Sequence record: MF158045
Length of the DNA stretch: 64,000 nucleotides
Reading direction: 5' to 3' (one strand)
Source: Shigella phage Sf22
The notes under the pieces were generated by a model. The model worked only from the letters and a program-made list of their open reading frames with translations. It was not told where the DNA came from and did no database searches. The position numbers and the translations under genes are program-made. Shown piece by piece: positions 25,480 through 44,570 of this stretch (its first letter is position 1; every line of letters begins with the position of its first letter).

Positions 25480-26799
25480 TCACACATAAAACACATCATA
25501 ACGACCACGAGTGACACCTACATAAAGAAGTTGCTGAGCTAATTCAGCATCTGCATAATGAATACAAGGCGTATAAATGAAAGCACGGTCTACAGACATA
25601 CCCTGAGCTTTATGGAATGTTGATGCAGGAAGTGCTTTCACTTTACTGAACTGTGATTTAGCATCCCAAAAATCACTCCATGGAGCTTTTCCGCCTTTGT
25701 TCCAATTTTTATAAGTTTCTGCCGTTTTACCTAAAAATAGGTTAAACTTATATAGCTCTTCATCAGATGAAATTATTTTAATCTTTTCACGATAATATTC
25801 ATCATCGCCGTAAGTTTCTACTGTTAAATCCCAATGACGAATTAAGTATTCTCCAGGAACACCACGAGCTTTAACAAACGTTGATGTATACTCTGCTTCT
25901 ATAATACGAACTAATTGTCCATTATTAAAAATAATTTCTGATACAGGCTTTCCATCAATTTTATATGTTTTAATTAATGGTTCCTGCATTACAATAATTT
26001 CACCGACAATAAAATCTTTATCAGTTTCAAAAATCTTTTTACGAATAATGCTATTTAACTTGTCAACAGATTTATTCGTAAATGCCATTACGCGATTTTC
26101 AAACAAATCATCTAGAGATTTGACGATTGAAAAATAATTTACCATAAAATCGCGTAAAGCGGTATCACCAGTAAATCCACGTACTCCATGCCCGTCAACA
26201 ACTTTATCATAAATCCACTTACCGTTGCGAACATCAGTAGCTACATCAATAATAGGAGCATTACTGCGTTTAACTTCAGTGAGTTCACACTGATAAAAAT
26301 CTTTATGTGTAAAGAATGGACTGATATAAGCAGTGTTTTCTCCTGGGTCAACAGGTCTAATTTGCTTATTATCGCCTATTCCAATTATAGTACACCACGG
26401 TGGGATAGTTGAAAGCAAAATTTTGAAGAGCTTTCTATCATACATTGACACTTCGTCGCAGATTAATACCCTGCATTTAGCTAAATCTGGTACTTCTTTT
26501 TGTTCAAAAAGAACGTTTTCTTCATACGTAACTGGGTTAATTTTAAGAATACTGTGAATAGTACTCGCTTCTTTCCCCGACAGTTTTGAAAGAATCTTTT
26601 TAGCTGCATGAGTAGGAGCTGCTAAAATAATACCAGTTTCACCCGTAGATATTAAAGCTTCAATGATGAATTTTGTAAGAGTAGTCTTACCAGTACCAGC
26701 AGGTCCATTAATAGTTACATGATGTTTCTTTTCTTTAATAGCCCTCATAACGATGTTAAAGGCATTTTTTTGGCCTTCTGTCAAATCATCAAATGTCAT
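25480..26799 (-). CDS. dda: DNA helicase Dda (SF1B)
   Basis: 439 aa (T4 Dda 439 aa); Walker A GPAGTGKTT. Confidence 0.95.
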   Translation of the reverse strand: MTFDDLTEGQKNAFNIVMRAIKEKKHHVTINGPAGTGKTTLTKFIIEALISTGETGIILAAPTHAAKKILSKLSGKEASTIHSILKINPVTYEENVLFEQKEVPDLAKCRVLICDEVSMYDRKLFKILLSTIPPWCTIIGIGDNKQIRPVDPGENTAYISPFFTHKDFYQCELTEVKRSNAPIIDVATDVRNGKWIYDKVVDGHGVRGFTGDTALRDFMVNYFSIVKSLDDLFENRVMAFTNKSVDKLNSIIRKKIFETDKDFIVGEIIVMQEPLIKTYKIDGKPVSEIIFNNGQLVRIIEAEYTSTFVKARGVPGEYLIRHWDLTVETYGDDEYYREKIKIISSDEELYKFNLFLGKTAETYKNWNKGGKAPWSDFWDAKSQFSKVKALPASTFHKAQGMSVDRAFIYTPCIHYADAELAQQLLYVGVTRGRYDVFYV

Positions 26800-27107
26800 C
26801 GGAAAGTCCCTGCAATTGGAATACTAACAATACGCCCAGTATCTAGAATTCGTTGATATAATCTTTGTGTATCTACATCAGGCTTAACATGTTTAACTTC
26901 TATTTTATTAAACCAAAACTTGCGTGGAGTCTCAACTAATCTTGGAATTCCTTTACCTAAAGCTAATCGATACTGCTCTTTAAGAGTAGTAAATACTTTA
27001 TCAGCAATATTCCATTCAAAAAATACAGCAGGACGATGTTCATCAAGCGGAACTGGCGCCGTAAATCCGTCTTTGTCTCGGTAAACTATCGCATATACAT
27101 AAACCAT
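26796..27107 (-). CDS. Hypothetical protein (103 aa), dda.1-like by position
   Basis: ORF track; overlaps dda start. Confidence 0.5.
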   Translation of the reverse strand: MVYVYAIVYRDKDGFTAPVPLDEHRPAVFFEWNIADKVFTTLKEQYRLALGKGIPRLVETPRKFWFNKIEVKHVKPDVDTQRLYQRILDTGRIVSIPIAGTFR

Positions 27108-39082: not shown

Positions 39083-39931
39083 TTAATCAACTGCTATTGG
39101 ATGAATAGCATTAAACTTATGAAATGCTTCTGATTTTTCTTTACGCGAAACACACATGCGAAGAACCTTTAATGGCTCGTCTTCTTCACCCAACGATTTT
39201 CGTTTTTCAATATTAGAAGTTTTCCAACGAGCTTGCTCTGGAAACTCTCTATTGATTTGCTCAAGCGCTCTATTATGTTTAGAATTACTACGAATTGAAC
39301 TGCACCCGCCAGGAGCTTGTGCTTTTCCAGATACAACCAGATATTTGAACAAGGCCAAATGCGGATAACCTTGATTAATTAAATTGAGAAATGCATACAT
39401 ATCTTCGCACAAATCAATTTTTCCATACCCAATTTGTTCTGTCGTAAGTTTTCCGAGGTCATACCATGTATTCGTGAATCCATATGAATTTTCACGATAA
39501 TTACCCCAAGATGAAGTAATTTTAAAAATAGGTAGACGAGCATGGCCATGATAATACCCACAATCCATGGCATCCTCAACATATTGAATCAATTCATAGA
39601 ACTGTTCACGGGTTAATTGATTGACTTTATCTACACAACGACGGTCATCTCTTTTTCGCATTGAACTCATACGAATAGTAGTATCATCGTCAATCATCCA
39701 GATTCGTTGACCTGTATACATATCAGTAATTGCTTTACGAGTACCGGCAATTCCGTTTACATCATCAGGAATAGTTATAATTTTAGCTCTAGACCCATAA
39801 GCGTCATGATAAGCTTTTTCTTCATGTTCACGCACTACAATATGGGGTTCATAATCAGTCGGAAACATATTAAGGGCAGAAACTGCCCCTACACGCTGAT
39901 AACTTGGAATTACGAATTGAATCATTTCCAC
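39083..39931 (-). CDS. Putative glycosyltransferase at the beta-gt locus (candidate beta-glucosyl-HMC alpha-glucosyltransferase of T2/T6 type)
   Basis: 282 aa; DxD-like motif IWMIDDDTTI; occupies the uvsX-42 interval but does not resemble T4 beta-gt (351 aa). Confidence 0.5.
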   Translation of the reverse strand: MEMIQFVIPSYQRVGAVSALNMFPTDYEPHIVVREHEEKAYHDAYGSRAKIITIPDDVNGIAGTRKAITDMYTGQRIWMIDDDTTIRMSSMRKRDDRRCVDKVNQLTREQFYELIQYVEDAMDCGYYHGHARLPIFKITSSWGNYRENSYGFTNTWYDLGKLTTEQIGYGKIDLCEDMYAFLNLINQGYPHLALFKYLVVSGKAQAPGGCSSIRSNSKHNRALEQINREFPEQARWKTSNIEKRKSLGEEDEPLKVLRMCVSRKEKSEAFHKFNAIHPIAVD

Positions 39932-40667: not shown

Positions 40668-40817
40668 CCTCAATTGATACATTCATATTTAAATTGTAAC
40701 AGTAATAAACCCCACCCTATGATAAGAGTTGGAATCATAGCAGGAACTGTTACGCTATAGTATATACTTATTATAACCATCAAGATTAAAAGCAACACTG
40801 TTATAATTTTGCTTTTC
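40668..40817 (-). CDS. Small membrane peptide (about 49 aa)
   Basis: Manual translation MKSKIITVLLLILMVIISIYYSVTVPAMIPTLIIGWG... Confidence 0.35.
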
Positions 40818-41067
40818 ATTCTTTCTCTCTGATGATAATTACCTGATTTGGCTGTGCAGACTTTTTAGTTTCACCAGCAATTGACCAAATAAATGTAATA
40901 AACCAACCAATAATTGACCAGTTAAACAGTAAAGATGTGAAAAAGATTCCTACTGTCGATTTTGACCCACGCATCAAGGCGATAAACCATGGAAGCATGT
41001 ATATAATAATAGCCAACACACCTGAAACTAAAACCATAAAAATTGAACCTGCTACTAAAGTTTCCAT
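40816..41067 (-). CDS. imm: Immunity protein Imm (superinfection exclusion membrane protein)
   Basis: 83 aa, two TMDs; T4 Imm is 83 aa; position between 42 and 43. Confidence 0.8.
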   Translation of the reverse strand: METLVAGSIFMVLVSGVLAIIIYMLPWFIALMRGSKSTVGIFFTSLLFNWSIIGWFITFIWSIAGETKKSAQPNQVIIIREKE

Positions 41068-41074
41068 GTTTTCC

Positions 41075-41446
41075 TCACTTAGTCAAATTTTTTACACATG
41101 AATTATAAGAATTCACTACATACTCCATCGGAGCATTTTTACCAGTACGCCATTGGTAATTATTAGCCCAAATTTCGGCGCAGTAGTTTTCAATTTTTTC
41201 TTCGCGTGTAATTACATCAGAATTACGATATGCTTGAGCAGATTCATCTGGACGAATAGCTTCGTCAAAATTCGCCTGCATTTGTTCGACTGTTTGCTTT
41301 GGAGCTTCTTTATAACACTTGACATTAGGATTATAAAATTTGCTTGAACAGTTTACAATTTTTCCTACATCAGACTGATTTACTACCGGTCCTTGAGCTA
41401 CACAACCAGTAAGACCTAATGCAATAACCAAAATAGCGATTTTCAT
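41075..41446 (-). CDS. Putative lipoprotein (123 aa), imm.1-like
   Basis: Signal peptide with lipobox LTGC (MKIAILVIALGLTGCVAQ). Confidence 0.55.
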   Translation of the reverse strand: MKIAILVIALGLTGCVAQGPVVNQSDVGKIVNCSSKFYNPNVKCYKEAPKQTVEQMQANFDEAIRPDESAQAYRNSDVITREEKIENYCAEIWANNYQWRTGKNAPMEYVVNSYNSCVKNLTK

Positions 41447-41456
41447 AATAATTTCC

Positions 41457-41705
41457 TCAAATGCAAGTAGTAATTACTCCAGTAGTGCTTATGCAGGTAT
41501 TACCCATTTGCACACCTAAAGATCCATTTGTATTCACATGAAGATTATCATCAATTTTAACTGATATTTTACCATTAGTGTGAATAACGGTGCTAGATTC
41601 AATCACAGGTTGAGTATCATTTTCAACACTAACAAATGGAACTGCTGCTAATGCAACTAAACAAACTGCTAAGCATCCCATAACAATTTTCATTTTATTC
41701 TCCAA
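41457..41705 (-). CDS. Putative secreted/membrane protein (82 aa)
   Basis: N-terminal signal-like segment MKIVMGCLAVCLVALAAVPFV; early promoter upstream. Confidence 0.5.
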   Translation of the reverse strand: MENKMKIVMGCLAVCLVALAAVPFVSVENDTQPVIESSTVIHTNGKISVKIDDNLHVNTNGSLGVQMGNTCISTTGVITTCI

Positions 41706-41757: not shown

Positions 41758-41844
41758 AGTTTTGTGAAAATTTTTTAGGGAATTCTAAAGGTCCAGAATC
41801 ATCTGTTTTTCATAAGTATAGATTTATATTACTTGTATGAAAAA

Positions 41845-41860
41845 GGGACCCGGAGGTCCC
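41845..41860 (-). terminator. Hairpin downstream of gene 43
   Basis: GGGACC-tccg-GGTCCC (minus-strand reading). Confidence 0.45.
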
Positions 41861-41873
41861 CAGATTTATTCTA

Positions 41874-44570
41874 TCAGCCAAACAGGAAGTCTAACGAAGC
41901 TTTTTCTTCATAGTCCATACCAGCCGATTCACACATACCCGCAAGCGGTTTAACAAACGATTTTTGGAACAAAGTTGAGTAGTCAATCCAAGACAGTACG
42001 TCAGAACGAATTTCTTTTGGAAGTTCTGTGCCCGACGGCCAAGCAATACACTTGTCACCAAATGGATTTCCTTCACGTAATGGAAGAACCATTACTTTAT
42101 TTCCATCCAAAATTGGAGCTACACCCAGACCATTAACAGCTCGACGATAAGTTAGCACACCACGAATATGGAACGGGCATTTAAATCCTGGCCAACCTTT
42201 ATCATCATATTTCGCTATATCGTTCGCAGTTTTTACTTCAGCAATAACTTTATAGTCAAGTTGACGATATTCTTTCTCGAAGTTCTTGTAATATTCTTGG
42301 ACAGACTCTTCACCTTCCTGAAGAATACGACGAATACTTTCTTCGAGAGCTTCTTGCACTGCTTTTGGTGTTGAACTCTGCTGAGTTTCCATACCCATGA
42401 TTTTTAGATGCGGTTCAGCAAATCGCTTATCTTCCATATCATAAACGTTCAGAGCATAACGCTTTTTCGCTTTCCAAAATCCGCCAACGCCTTTTGAACC
42501 AAGTGGAGGGCAAGAAATAGCTTCACGGTCCATATGCATCAGATGCTCGCGGTTATTCATATAATCACATAACTCACGATATGCAACATCAATCATAGGT
42601 TCCATCTTTTTCTTACCGAACTGATTCATGAATTCAACTAAATCGTTCTGCTCTTTGAATCGGTCAAGACCAACTTTTTCAATAACTTTATCTACACAAA
42701 CATATACCGAATCAGTATCACCTGCTGCGATGAAATCTTCGCCATTAGTTCCACATACTTTATTCAGATACTCATTAATTTTACGAGCAATCCACTGAAT
42801 ACCGACTTGACCAAAAATTGTAATAGCAGTAGCATTTCGCAAATCATAGTAGCGGAAATGAATATTACCAAGAGCACCGTAAAGGCTGTTAATAAGAATT
42901 TTACGGTTCAGCTGATTTGTATTAGCAAGTGTAGCCGCTTTTTCACATTCTTCAATCAAACTATTGAGAACAGATTCAGTATAATTCGATAGTTCATTTA
43001 AGAAATCATCACTGAACTTAACATATCGTTCAACTTCAGGTTTAGTTGAACAAGACCCTGCGCCTTTCATAATAATCTTTTTAATAGCTTCGGCATTCAT
43101 TTCTTCAGCGAACATTTTCTTTTTCCAATCTTTACGCTGGAAAAATACTTTAGCGATTTCCTTTGGAATGATACCTTCTTGATGCTTATCATACATCCAT
43201 CCATTCGGAGAACAAGAATATTCATCACTCGGTTTAGGAGCTGTTCCTGCGATATATTCATGAATTGGATGAACTTTAAACTGCCCACGAATAGTCTCAG
43301 GACTAATGTTAACCTGACGAATAATGCTCGGATACAGAGACGTCAAGTCAAAACTCATAATATATCGACGAGCAATTGGTTTAGGTTCAAACACAAATGC
43401 ACCCGGAAAACTCTGTTTAACATGCGAACCTTGTTGAGGAATAACCTTATGTTCACCTTTCAATGAGTTAAAAATAATAGCATCCCAGGTTTTAATAGGA
43501 CTCATTACACCGGAAAAAGGCATTTTAGCGTAATAAGACATACTTAAAACTAGATCGATAAACCCGCGAATTTTATCAATTGCTTGAACTGATTCTACGT
43601 CAATGATGTTATAACTAATGTATCGTTGATGATTAGTCTCACGAAGTTTATTAATAGGACCGTCGTATGGTAATTTACCTTTTTTGGTTTCATGTTGAGC
43701 AACTGATTCCAAAGAGAATGACGGCAAATTAGTAAAAGCGAATTTCTTGTACAAATCTAAATAATCAAGAATAGATACGCCATCAATAGAATAAATTTCT
43801 TTGCTACCGTACATATTTTGAATTAATTTAGATTTTACTCGACCGATTGGAGAGAAGCGTTTCATACTACGTTCACCGAGAACCATTTTAACGCGATTCA
43901 TGATATACGGAACGTCAAATCCCTCAATATTCCAACCGGTAAAAATAGCAGGTCGTTTCTGTTCCCAAAGATTAATATATTCCATGAGCATATCACGCTC
44001 ATTATCGAATGGCATATAAATTACTCGGTCAAGAATTTCTTGAGGAACTTCATCACCACCTTCACAGTCAAGCTTAGCAGCTAACTTTGCATCCCATTTT
44101 GATACTGAACCATACATTGAATTCAAAAGGTCGAAAACATAAAAACGATCATCAATTGAATCGTAATGAGTGATAGCATCAATTTCATATTCAGCTTTCA
44201 TTGGGTCAGGAAATTTATCACCAGTAACCTCAATGTCACAGTTAGCTACACGAACAAATTTTCGGTCATAAACAATTTCTGAACCGTATGTATCACTGAT
44301 ATAAGCGAGTTTAAAATCGTTCATACCGAGAGCTTCGAGACCGATGTCTTCCATTCGTTTCATCCAATCTCGAGCATCTTTCATTGATGAAAATTTTTGA
44401 GGAGCGCAATTTTTACCATAGATGTCTTTGTACTTTGACTCTTCCTTACAATGCCTAAACATAGTCGGAAGATATTCTACTTCACGAGTACGTTCCTTTC
44501 CGTTTTCATCAATATAACGTTCAACAATGTTATTTCCGACTGTTTCGATAGAGATATAAAATTCTTTCAT
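41874..44570 (-). CDS. 43: DNA polymerase gp43 (family B)
   Basis: 898 aa (T4 gp43 898 aa); polymerase motifs SLYGALG and AAGDTDSVYV. Confidence 0.97.
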   Translation of the reverse strand: MKEFYISIETVGNNIVERYIDENGKERTREVEYLPTMFRHCKEESKYKDIYGKNCAPQKFSSMKDARDWMKRMEDIGLEALGMNDFKLAYISDTYGSEIVYDRKFVRVANCDIEVTGDKFPDPMKAEYEIDAITHYDSIDDRFYVFDLLNSMYGSVSKWDAKLAAKLDCEGGDEVPQEILDRVIYMPFDNERDMLMEYINLWEQKRPAIFTGWNIEGFDVPYIMNRVKMVLGERSMKRFSPIGRVKSKLIQNMYGSKEIYSIDGVSILDYLDLYKKFAFTNLPSFSLESVAQHETKKGKLPYDGPINKLRETNHQRYISYNIIDVESVQAIDKIRGFIDLVLSMSYYAKMPFSGVMSPIKTWDAIIFNSLKGEHKVIPQQGSHVKQSFPGAFVFEPKPIARRYIMSFDLTSLYPSIIRQVNISPETIRGQFKVHPIHEYIAGTAPKPSDEYSCSPNGWMYDKHQEGIIPKEIAKVFFQRKDWKKKMFAEEMNAEAIKKIIMKGAGSCSTKPEVERYVKFSDDFLNELSNYTESVLNSLIEECEKAATLANTNQLNRKILINSLYGALGNIHFRYYDLRNATAITIFGQVGIQWIARKINEYLNKVCGTNGEDFIAAGDTDSVYVCVDKVIEKVGLDRFKEQNDLVEFMNQFGKKKMEPMIDVAYRELCDYMNNREHLMHMDREAISCPPLGSKGVGGFWKAKKRYALNVYDMEDKRFAEPHLKIMGMETQQSSTPKAVQEALEESIRRILQEGEESVQEYYKNFEKEYRQLDYKVIAEVKTANDIAKYDDKGWPGFKCPFHIRGVLTYRRAVNGLGVAPILDGNKVMVLPLREGNPFGDKCIAWPSGTELPKEIRSDVLSWIDYSTLFQKSFVKPLAGMCESAGMDYEEKASLDFLFG

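What the first reader, a model, noticed from the sequence alone, without database searches (positions are those of the whole stretch)
40668..41705. Cluster of membrane, lipoprotein and secreted proteins around imm
imm is accompanied by a 49-aa membrane peptide, a 123-aa lipoprotein (lipobox LTGC) and an 82-aa signal-peptide protein. All are predicted envelope proteins between genes 42 and 43, consistent with an expanded superinfection-exclusion or envelope-remodelling module.
Basis: partly seen in the sequence, partly recalled or inferred. Interest (0 to 1): 0.4.

Follow-up and report, generated by a model that had tools for sequence, protein, structure and literature searches.

The report
T4-type imm locus envelope genes
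This is the ordinary, already sequenced superinfection-immunity (imm) locus of a T4-like phage. The one useful lead is that the neighbouring lipoprotein gene, imm.1, sits next to imm in almost all T4-like phages I examined and may be an untested partner in blocking a second phage.

Summary
Between DNA polymerase (gene 43) and dCMP hydroxymethylase (gene 42), the minus strand carries four tightly packed small genes:
- the 123-aa lipoprotein Imm.1 (lipobox LTGC);
- the 83-aa Imm;
- a 49-aa membrane peptide whose ATG overlaps the imm stop codon.

The window is a Tequatrovirus, 99% identical here to phage Aplg8, and about 500 sequenced phages carry the locus. T4 itself has three of the four genes, so the locus is barely "expanded". 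Only the 78-aa gene is extra, and 324 phage records have it.

The most useful result is about Imm.1. It belongs to a lipoprotein family (phrog_1754) found in T4-like phages of nine genera examined. That family lay beside imm in all 23 T4-like contigs retrieved through imm. The pairing survives a swap in gene order and, in Mosigvirus, a move to a site next to spackle. Two lineages (CHI14, EcS1-like) have the lipoprotein without a nearby imm.

Imm.1 is under strong purifying selection and is an early protein in T4. No function has been tested for it. The 49-aa peptide family is conserved but not tied to imm.

Verdict: a known locus of moderate-to-low interest, with one testable hypothesis, that Imm.1 partners Imm.

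The parts
41844..41861 (-). Terminator-like hairpin (GGGGACC-tccg-GGTCCC plus a T run), 13 nt after the gene 43 stop codon
   Evidence: Scan. The element is conserved in T4 and Aplg8. It is annotated as a putative terminator in T4 record M37159 and in phage Lutter.
41728..41757 (-). Early-promoter-like site: GTTTAC, 18 nt, TACTAT, with TG before the -10 element. It lies upstream of the four-gene unit.
   Evidence: It is identical in T4, and a promoter is annotated at the equivalent place in phage Lutter. That GTTTAC is the T4 early -35 consensus is my own knowledge. Promoter activity is inferred.
41457..41693 (-). orf78: a 78-aa protein with an N-terminal signal peptide and a strand-rich mature part of about 62 aa that has two conserved Cys (67 and 77). 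It is an accessory gene.
   Evidence: - GGAG lies 6 nt before the ATG.
- It matches phrog_4189 at E 5e-30.
- It is present in 324 phage records, all T4-like by name, and is absent from T4 by a 247-bp indel.
- pN/pS is 0.43.
- The AF2 model is poor (pLDDT 52.6, six short strands).
41075..41446 (-). imm.1: a 123-aa lipoprotein precursor. The lipobox is LTGC with Cys15, and +2 is Val, so the predicted destination is the outer membrane. The mature domain faces the periplasm and has four further Cys.
   Evidence: - Family hits: Pfam DUF5481 at E 1e-66 and phrog_1754 at E 3e-40.
- pN/pS is 0.05.
- Cys89 and Cys117 are invariant across nine genera. The Cys33/Cys44 pair is present or absent together in the closer homologues.
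- T4 imm.1 is classed as early RNA and early protein (PMC9697503 supplement).
40816..41067 (-). imm: the 83-aa inner-membrane superinfection immunity protein
   Evidence: Pfam PF14373 at E 8e-16 and phrog_1039 at E 4e-32. It is 98.8% identical to T4 Imm. Its GAGGA ribosome-binding site overlaps the imm.1 stop codon.
40670..40819 (-). orf49: a 49-aa small membrane protein with the conserved motif IY[WY]-x5-P-x-MIPT-x4-W-x5-Q-x-K[YF]-x-C-x-N. Its ATG overlaps the imm stop codon (ATGA).
   Evidence: - It matches phrog_3610 at E 2e-26. Homologues carry a precomputed PF26865 assignment.
- The ORF is intact but unannotated in T4.
- Family members of 45-49 aa occur in Tequatro-, Mosig-, Dhaka-, Gapriver- and Winklervirus. 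The four read at DNA level (PhAPEC2, VR5, JS98, CHI14), like the window, have an ATGA overlap with whatever gene lies upstream.
- Across genera pS is 0.64 and pN is 0.27.
40770..40794 (-). Middle-promoter-like element inside orf49 (MotA-box-like TGCTTTT, 12 nt, TATAAT), about 100 nt upstream of gene 42
   Evidence: Pattern match. A promoter is annotated at the equivalent place in phage Lutter. The comparison with the T4 middle-promoter consensus is my own knowledge. Activity is not shown.

Best explanation
This is the imm locus of a T-even phage: one early transcription unit lying between the gene 43 terminator and gene 42. It encodes four small envelope proteins in the order orf78, imm.1, imm, orf49.

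**Shown**
- The genes are real, tightly packed and linked at the translation level.
- Imm is the known inner-membrane immunity protein.
- Imm.1 has a canonical lipoprotein signal, no Asp at +2, and conserved Cys pairs.
- Its family sits beside imm in nearly all T4-like phages examined.

**Inferred**
- Imm.1 is lipidated, sorted to the inner face of the outer membrane, and disulfide-bonded in the periplasm.
- It acts together with Imm early in infection. I picture it as the periplasmic or outer-membrane half of the barrier that stops the tail tip or DNA of a later T-even phage from crossing the envelope, while Imm acts at the inner membrane and Spackle blocks the gp5 lysozyme.
- orf49 is a conserved small inner-membrane protein made by translation coupled to whatever gene lies upstream. 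Its role is probably separate from imm.
- orf78 is a strain-variable secreted peptide, lipid-anchored in some phages, of unknown role.
For: **Anatomy**

**Selection and expression**
- imm.1 is as constrained as imm and gene 42 (pN/pS 0.052, 0.058 and 0.074).
- T4 imm.1 is detected as early RNA and early protein, the same class as spackle (PMC9697503 supplement).

**Periplasmic location**
- The lipobox is kept in 11 of the 12 divergent homologues aligned. The one exception carries an ordinary signal peptide instead.
- One Cys pair is invariant, and a second pair is gained or lost as a pair.

**Linkage to imm**
- Lipoproteins next to imm in Gelderland-, Dhaka-, Gapriver-, Mosig- and Muldoonvirus and in a Klebsiella phage all match a phrog_1754-type profile. 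The E-values are 1e-15 to 1e-52 against phrog_1754, and 3e-10 for Muldoonvirus PS2 against my own HMM of the family.
- 23 of 23 T4-like IMG/VR contigs retrieved through imm have this lipoprotein adjacent, or separated only by orf49.
- Four arrangements exist: lipoprotein-imm, imm-orf49-lipoprotein, imm-lipoprotein, and lipoprotein-imm moved to between dmd and spackle.
- Imm-domain genes in other phages have a same-strand lipoprotein within 1 kb in only 4 of 52 loci. About 3 are expected from the background rate of 0.028 per kb.
Against: - No experiment links Imm.1 to exclusion, and my literature searches found none.
- From memory (Lu and Henning 1989), imm expressed alone from a plasmid already excludes T4. 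Imm.1 is therefore not strictly required.
- CHI14 (Winklervirus) and an EcS1-like contig have the lipoprotein and orf49 but no imm within 3.5 kb. CHI14 has no imm in its first 50 kb.
- Much of the synteny could simply be inherited, because most lineages keep both genes in the same 43-42 interval.
- The structure model is weak (pLDDT 61.8) and has no informative fold match, so nothing points to a binding partner.
Confidence: 0.45

Rival explanations
1. The linkage is inherited gene order and does not reflect shared function. Imm.1 is an early periplasmic lipoprotein with a job of its own, for example stabilising the envelope of the infected cell or neutralising a host periplasmic or outer-membrane factor. 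It merely shares a promoter with imm.
For: - The lipoprotein occurs without a nearby imm in CHI14 and in an EcS1-like contig.
- In most genera both genes stay in the ancestral 43-42 interval.
- From memory, imm alone suffices for exclusion from a plasmid.
Against: - Adjacency survives an order swap and a joint translocation to the spackle locus, while the third gene (orf49) stays behind.
- In PS2 the lipoprotein and imm reading frames overlap by 4 nt.
- In the window the imm ribosome-binding site overlaps the imm.1 stop codon.
Confidence: 0.35
2. Imm.1 is a receptor-masking exclusion lipoprotein of the Llp (T5) or Cor (phi80/N15) kind. It would bind the outer-membrane receptor of the phage from the periplasmic side and so block adsorption.
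For: It is a small early lipoprotein predicted to go to the outer membrane, in a lytic phage and next to an exclusion gene. Blocking a receptor with a lipoprotein is an established mechanism; this last point is my own knowledge.
Against: - All roughly 500 Tequatrovirus copies are at least 90% identical. They include T2, T4 and T6, which use different receptors (own knowledge).
- No Pfam or PHROG match to any family other than DUF5481 and phrog_1754.
- From my own knowledge, T-even exclusion does not block adsorption.
Confidence: 0.07
3. One or both of the short flanking ORFs (orf49, orf78) are not genes. Their conservation would then reflect regulatory DNA, for example the middle-promoter-like site inside orf49.
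For: pN/pS is only about 0.4 for both. A promoter-like element lies inside orf49. T4 reference records do not annotate orf49. orf78 is dispensable in T4.
Against: - orf49 keeps its frame, its length (45-49 codons), 12 invariant residues and, in every genus read at DNA level, the ATGA coupling. This holds across five genera in which synonymous sites are near saturation (pS 0.64, pN 0.27).
- orf78 has a good ribosome-binding site.
- In orf78, in-frame 21-bp duplications are confined to the signal peptide, and the Cys pair is conserved.
Confidence: 0.05

Closest known systems
Phage T4 imm / imm.1 locus (T4 26230-27013; originally ORF 42.1 and ORF 42.2 of GenBank M37159)
   Same: Same position between genes 43 and 42. 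Same terminator and promoter-like sequence. imm is 98.8% identical, imm.1 about 96%, and orf49 84%.
   Different: The window has an extra 78-aa gene upstream of imm.1, present in 324 phage records but not in T4. Its Imm.1 lacks one WAN repeat. T4 records do not annotate orf49.
Spackle (T4 sp), the periplasmic exclusion protein that inhibits the gp5 tail lysozyme (PMC7677548)
   Same: Both are small, early, Cys-containing periplasmic proteins of T-even phages. In Mosigvirus, imm.1-imm sits directly beside sp. T4 sp and imm.1 fall in the same early RNA / early protein class.
   Different: No sequence similarity was detected. Imm.1 is lipid-anchored and mainly helical in its C-terminal half. No target is known for it.
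Exclusion lipoproteins Llp (T5) and Cor (phi80, N15)
   Same: All are small phage-encoded outer-membrane lipoproteins made to keep out later phages. This part of the comparison rests on my own knowledge.
   Different: No homology was detected. Imm.1 is nearly invariant among T-even phages that use different receptors, which argues against receptor masking.

Membership tests
Imm superinfection immunity protein (Pfam PF14373, phrog_1039) | Match to the family profile above the curated threshold | tested here: met
   PF14373 scores 58.2 bits against a cut-off of 27.9 (E 8e-16). phrog_1039 gives E 4e-32.
Imm superinfection immunity protein (Pfam PF14373, phrog_1039) | Two hydrophobic membrane segments separated by a short basic loop | tested here: met
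   Kyte-Doolittle windows of at least 1.6 cover residues about 1-32 and 41-64, with R33 and K36 between them.
Imm superinfection immunity protein (Pfam PF14373, phrog_1039) | Expression blocks DNA entry of superinfecting T-even phage | not testable with these tools
   Inferred from 98.8% identity to T4 Imm. The T4 phenotype is from the literature (own knowledge; PMC6832632).
Imm.1 / DUF5481 (PF17578) / phrog_1754 lipoproteins of T4-like phages | Full-length match to the family profiles | tested here: met
   PF17578 scores 222 bits against a cut-off of 27 (E 1e-66). phrog_1754 gives E 3e-40 over residues 1-123.
Imm.1 / DUF5481 (PF17578) / phrog_1754 lipoproteins of T4-like phages | Conserved Cys pair in the C-terminal helices, and a position beside imm | tested here: met
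   C89 and C117 are invariant in 12 sequences from nine genera. imm.1 is adjacent to imm in the window and in 23 of 23 T4-like contigs.
Bacterial lipoprotein precursors (Lgt / LspA substrates) | Basic n-region, hydrophobic core, and a lipobox [LVI][ASTVI][GAS]C with the Cys at about positions 15-35 | tested here: met
   The precursor begins MK-IAILVIALG-LTGC with Cys15. There is also a weak Pfam LPAM_1 hit. The lipobox is kept in 11 of 12 homologues.
Bacterial lipoprotein precursors (Lgt / LspA substrates) | Actual lipidation, and sorting to the outer membrane when +2 is not Asp | not testable with these tools
   The +2 residue is V, I, A, G, S or Q in the homologues and never Asp. The sorting rule itself is established knowledge.
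Sec signal-peptide proteins (for orf78) | n/h/c regions with a small-x-small cleavage site | tested here: inconclusive
   By eye the sequence is MK, then a 14-residue hydrophobic core, then A-L-A|A. No predictor was available. Some variants have a longer core, and one type gains an LAAC lipobox.
Llp / Cor receptor-blocking exclusion lipoproteins | Sequence or fold relationship to Llp or Cor | tested here: not met
   Pfam and PHROG scans return only DUF5481 and phrog_1754. Fold searches give no match other than the family's own members.
phrog_3610 / PF26865 small membrane peptides (for orf49) | Profile match and the conserved P-x-MIPT ... Q-x-K[YF]-x-C-x-N motif | tested here: met
   phrog_3610 gives E 2e-26. 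PF26865 is precomputed on all 7 homologues. The motif is invariant in 8 sequences.

The most novel reading that the evidence does not exclude
The phrog_1754 lipoprotein (Imm.1) and Imm form a two-part, envelope-spanning injection block that is conserved across T4-like phages. The lipoprotein would capture or misdirect the incoming tail tip or DNA in the periplasm, and Imm would close the inner-membrane route. That would supply the missing component in the still unresolved mechanism of T4 immunity.
Probability: 0.3. Interest if true: 0.6.

Novelty: already known. Interest (0 to 1): 0.3.

Why it matters
How Imm stops DNA entry has been unclear since the gene was cloned in 1989. Imm has so far been treated as acting alone. 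The comparison here shows that a strongly constrained, early-expressed lipoprotein travels with imm through several genome rearrangements in T4-like phages. This gives a concrete, inexpensive experiment: compare imm.1 deletion and co-expression with imm alone. Beyond that, the locus is a standard, well-sampled part of T-even genomes. The remaining results are useful mainly for annotation: orf49 is missing from the T4 reference records, some homologues are annotated with the wrong start, and RefSeq carries misleading product names.

Tried and rejected
**Searches for distant relatives**
- Word-index search: Imm.1 returned only 3 near-identical clusters, orf78 14 and orf49 7, all from T-even-like sources.
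- Exhaustive HMMER search with Imm.1 against 1.84 billion representatives: 6 hits, none with a name or a bacterial context.

**Structure**
- AF2 on Imm.1 (pLDDT 61.8) and on orf78 (pLDDT 52.6) were both too weak to interpret.
- Foldseek against BFVD and PDB gave only the family's own members or matches with E above 0.8.
- PDB sequence-profile searches were empty, or found a single chance hit at E 0.78.

**Other libraries**
- NCBIfam and PADLOC gave nothing meaningful.

**Literature**
- Nine searches, plus the reading of two papers, found no functional study of imm.1, DUF5481, orf49 or orf78. Several searches were swamped by journal DOIs containing "imm.1".

**Ideas rejected**
- A lipoprotein reading of orf78 in this window: VMGC at Cys7 lies too close to the N-terminus, and LAVC has Val at -1.

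**Not completed**
- A profile of all phrog_1754 lipoproteins was too divergent for the locus finder.
- I did not search the remaining 121 kb of CHI14 for imm.

Full report
**What is in the sequence.**
The window is a Tequatrovirus. The 1.3-kb region is 99.2% identical to phage Aplg8, and 514 phage records match it. On the minus strand, gene 43 (41874-44570, T4-type DNA polymerase) is followed by:
- a terminator-like hairpin (41861-41844);
- a promoter-like site, GTTTAC-18-TACTAT (41757-41728);
- four closely packed ORFs;
- gene 42 (40662-39922).

The four ORFs are as follows.
- **orf78 (41693-41457).** The ATG four codons later has GGAG 6 nt upstream, and homologues are annotated from it.
- **imm.1 (41446-41075).** The precursor begins MKIAILVIALGLTGC, which is a canonical lipobox. 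Val at +2 predicts outer-membrane sorting by the Asp+2 rule (established knowledge). It matches Pfam DUF5481 at E 1e-66.
- **imm (41067-40816).** It matches PF14373 and is 98.8% identical to T4 Imm. Its ribosome-binding site overlaps the imm.1 stop codon.
- **orf49 (40819-40670).** Its ATG overlaps the imm stop codon as ATGA.

**Comparison with T4.**
An alignment with T4 and Aplg8 shows that T4 has imm.1, imm and an intact 49-codon ORF. Neither T4 reference record annotates that ORF.

T4 lacks orf78 through a clean 247-bp indel. The edges of the indel share the sequence ATGAAAAT, which is the start of both orf78 and imm.1. The terminator and the promoter-like sequence are conserved in T4.

The locus is thus the standard T-even imm locus and is hardly "expanded". 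The original T4 entry M37159 already listed imm.1 and imm as ORF 42.2 and ORF 42.1.

**Are the small ORFs genes?**
tblastn against 50,697 phage records finds orf78 in 324, orf49 in 580, imm.1 in 655 and imm in at least 1000.

Among eight Tequatrovirus copies, pN/pS is 0.052 for imm.1, 0.058 for imm and 0.074 for gene 42. It is 0.40 for orf49 and 0.43 for orf78.

The orf49 family is clearly coding.
- In Mosig-, Dhaka-, Gapriver- and Winklervirus it keeps a length of 45-49 codons and 12 invariant residues (IY..P.MIPT..W..Q.K..C.N).
- In the window and in the four phages read at DNA level (PhAPEC2, VR5, JS98, CHI14), it has an ATGA overlap with whatever gene lies upstream.
- Synonymous sites across these genera are near saturation (pS 0.64, pN 0.27).
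- The 36-aa annotations in JS98 and PhAPEC2 use the wrong start.

A MotA-box-like element plus TATAAT lies inside orf49 (40794-40770). It may be a middle promoter for gene 42 (the consensus is from my own knowledge).

**orf78.**
The mature part of about 62 aa has three TNG/TTG-turn repeats and two conserved Cys. AF2 gives six short strands at low confidence (pLDDT 52.6).

Variants carry in-frame 7-aa duplications that are confined to the signal peptide. One common type (a cluster of 51 member sequences) thereby gains an LAAC lipobox, and UniRef names it "Lipoprotein".

No Pfam, NCBIfam or PADLOC family matches it. I regard it as a dispensable, strain-variable exported peptide of unknown role.

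**Imm.1 belongs to a wide lipoprotein family that travels with imm.**
Direct searches found few relatives. They include Mosigvirus homologues at about 35% identity and one metagenomic form that has an ordinary signal peptide in place of the lipobox.

I then looked at what lies beside imm in other genera. In every case I found a lipoprotein of 137-167 aa:
- Gelderlandvirus S16 and a Klebsiella phage: 43 | lipoprotein | imm | 42;
- Dhakavirus JS98 and VR5, and Gaprivervirus SP18: 43 | imm | orf49-like | lipoprotein;
- Muldoonvirus PS2: lipoprotein overlapping imm by 4 nt;
- Mosigvirus PhAPEC2: dmd | imm.1-like | imm | spackle, with the orf49-like gene left behind near gene 43.

All of these lipoproteins except the PS2 one were scanned against PHROGs, and each matches phrog_1754 over its full length (E 1e-15 to 1e-52). 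The PS2 lipoprotein matches my own HMM of the family at E 3e-10. All share the lipobox and an invariant Cys pair in the C-terminal helices.

A second Cys pair (C33/C44 in the window) is present or absent as a pair in the closer homologues. This fits disulfide bonding in the periplasm.

**A more systematic test of the linkage.**
- Eighty IMG/VR loci were retrieved through Imm. All 23 T4-like contigs in which my HMM placed imm have the phrog_1754 lipoprotein adjacent, or separated only by orf49.
- Among 52 other phage contigs with Imm-domain genes, only 4 have any same-strand lipobox ORF within 1 kb. About 3 are expected from the background rate of 0.028 per kb.
- In the reverse direction, 16 of 18 loci retrieved through the lipoprotein have imm adjacent.
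- The two exceptions are CHI14 (Winklervirus) and an EcS1-like contig. Both have the lipoprotein and orf49-like but no imm within 3.5 kb, and CHI14 has none in its first 50 kb.

**Expression.**
In the T4 multi-omics study PMC9697503, the supplementary tables class imm.1 as early at both RNA and protein level, the same class as spackle.

**Mechanism.**
Established: imm is the known immunity gene. Per the T4 record's annotation it leaves the DNA of superinfecting phage in the periplasm, and Spackle inhibits the gp5 lysozyme (PMC6832632, PMC7677548).

Inferred: Imm.1 is an outer-membrane-anchored, disulfide-bonded periplasmic protein. It is made together with Imm and most likely acts with it against incoming T-even phages. 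I put this at about 0.45.

The main rival, at about 0.35, is that the lipoprotein has an independent early periplasmic role and the linkage is mostly inherited gene order. The CHI14 and EcS1 exceptions support that view, as does my recollection that imm alone excludes phage when expressed from a plasmid.

Receptor masking of the Llp/Cor kind is unlikely. Imm.1 is at least 90% identical in all Tequatrovirus records, including T2, T4 and T6, which use different receptors (the receptors are from my own knowledge).

The structure gave no further lead. The AF2 model (pLDDT 61.8) has a disordered N-terminal third followed by four helices. It has no informative match in BFVD or PDB, and sequence-profile searches of the PDB were empty.

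**Verdict.**
The finding is real, but it describes a known, heavily sampled locus. It is not supported for orf49, and it is untested for orf78. I found no published function for imm.1. The conserved pairing is a modest but testable lead on how T4 immunity works.

Noticed in passing
window 40670-40819; T4 AF158101 26230-26376 (L002 4231-4377): The 49-codon ORF between imm and gene 42 is intact in T4 but is not annotated in either T4 reference record. It belongs to a family conserved in at least five genera.
   Followed up: yes
L003 2456-2593 (JS98), L014 7520-7660 (PhAPEC2), L005 2453-2593 (VR5): Homologues of orf49 are annotated as 36 aa (JS98, PhAPEC2) or not annotated at all (VR5). An upstream in-frame ATG that overlaps the preceding stop codon (ATGA) gives 45-47 aa and restores the conserved N-terminal hydrophobic segment.
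   Followed up: yes
window 40770-40794 (minus strand): A MotA-box-like TGCTTTT, a 12-nt spacer and TATAAT lie inside orf49, about 100 nt upstream of gene 42. This may be a middle promoter embedded in a coding sequence.
   Followed up: partly
window about 41160-41175 (imm.1 codons about 91-95): The window's Imm.1 has one copy of a 9-bp unit (TTGGGCTAA; aa WAN) where T4 and Aplg8 have two, giving 123 aa instead of 125-126. No phage record reached 99% identity, but BFVD lists an identical 123-aa protein from Shigella phage Sf22.
   Followed up: partly
orf78 homologues P0008, P0014, P0015 (signal peptide; window 41640-41693): In-frame 21-bp tandem duplications occur at three different places in the signal-peptide core. 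One of them creates an LAAC lipobox, so the same mature peptide is predicted to be secreted in some phages and lipid-anchored in others.
   Followed up: partly
T4 NC_000866 26636-27013 and 25479-26219 (L002): RefSeq names imm.1 'iduronate sulfatase' and gene 42 (dCMP hydroxymethylase) 'thymidylate synthase'. Both look like propagated misnomers, and they recur in many related records.
   Followed up: no
window 39083-39931; T4 L002 1571-3456: Next to gene 42 the window carries the T2/T6-type beta-glucosyl-HMC-alpha-glucosyltransferase (282-aa ORF), where T4 has beta-glucosyltransferase. The homing endonuclease gene segA, present in T4 between uvsX and beta-gt, is absent.
   Followed up: no
L102 (CHI14, 1-50000), L104: Winklervirus CHI14 and an EcS1-like contig have the phrog_1754 lipoprotein and the orf49-like gene, separated by an arabinose-5-phosphate isomerase gene. 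No imm was found nearby. The rest of the CHI14 genome was not searched.
   Followed up: partly
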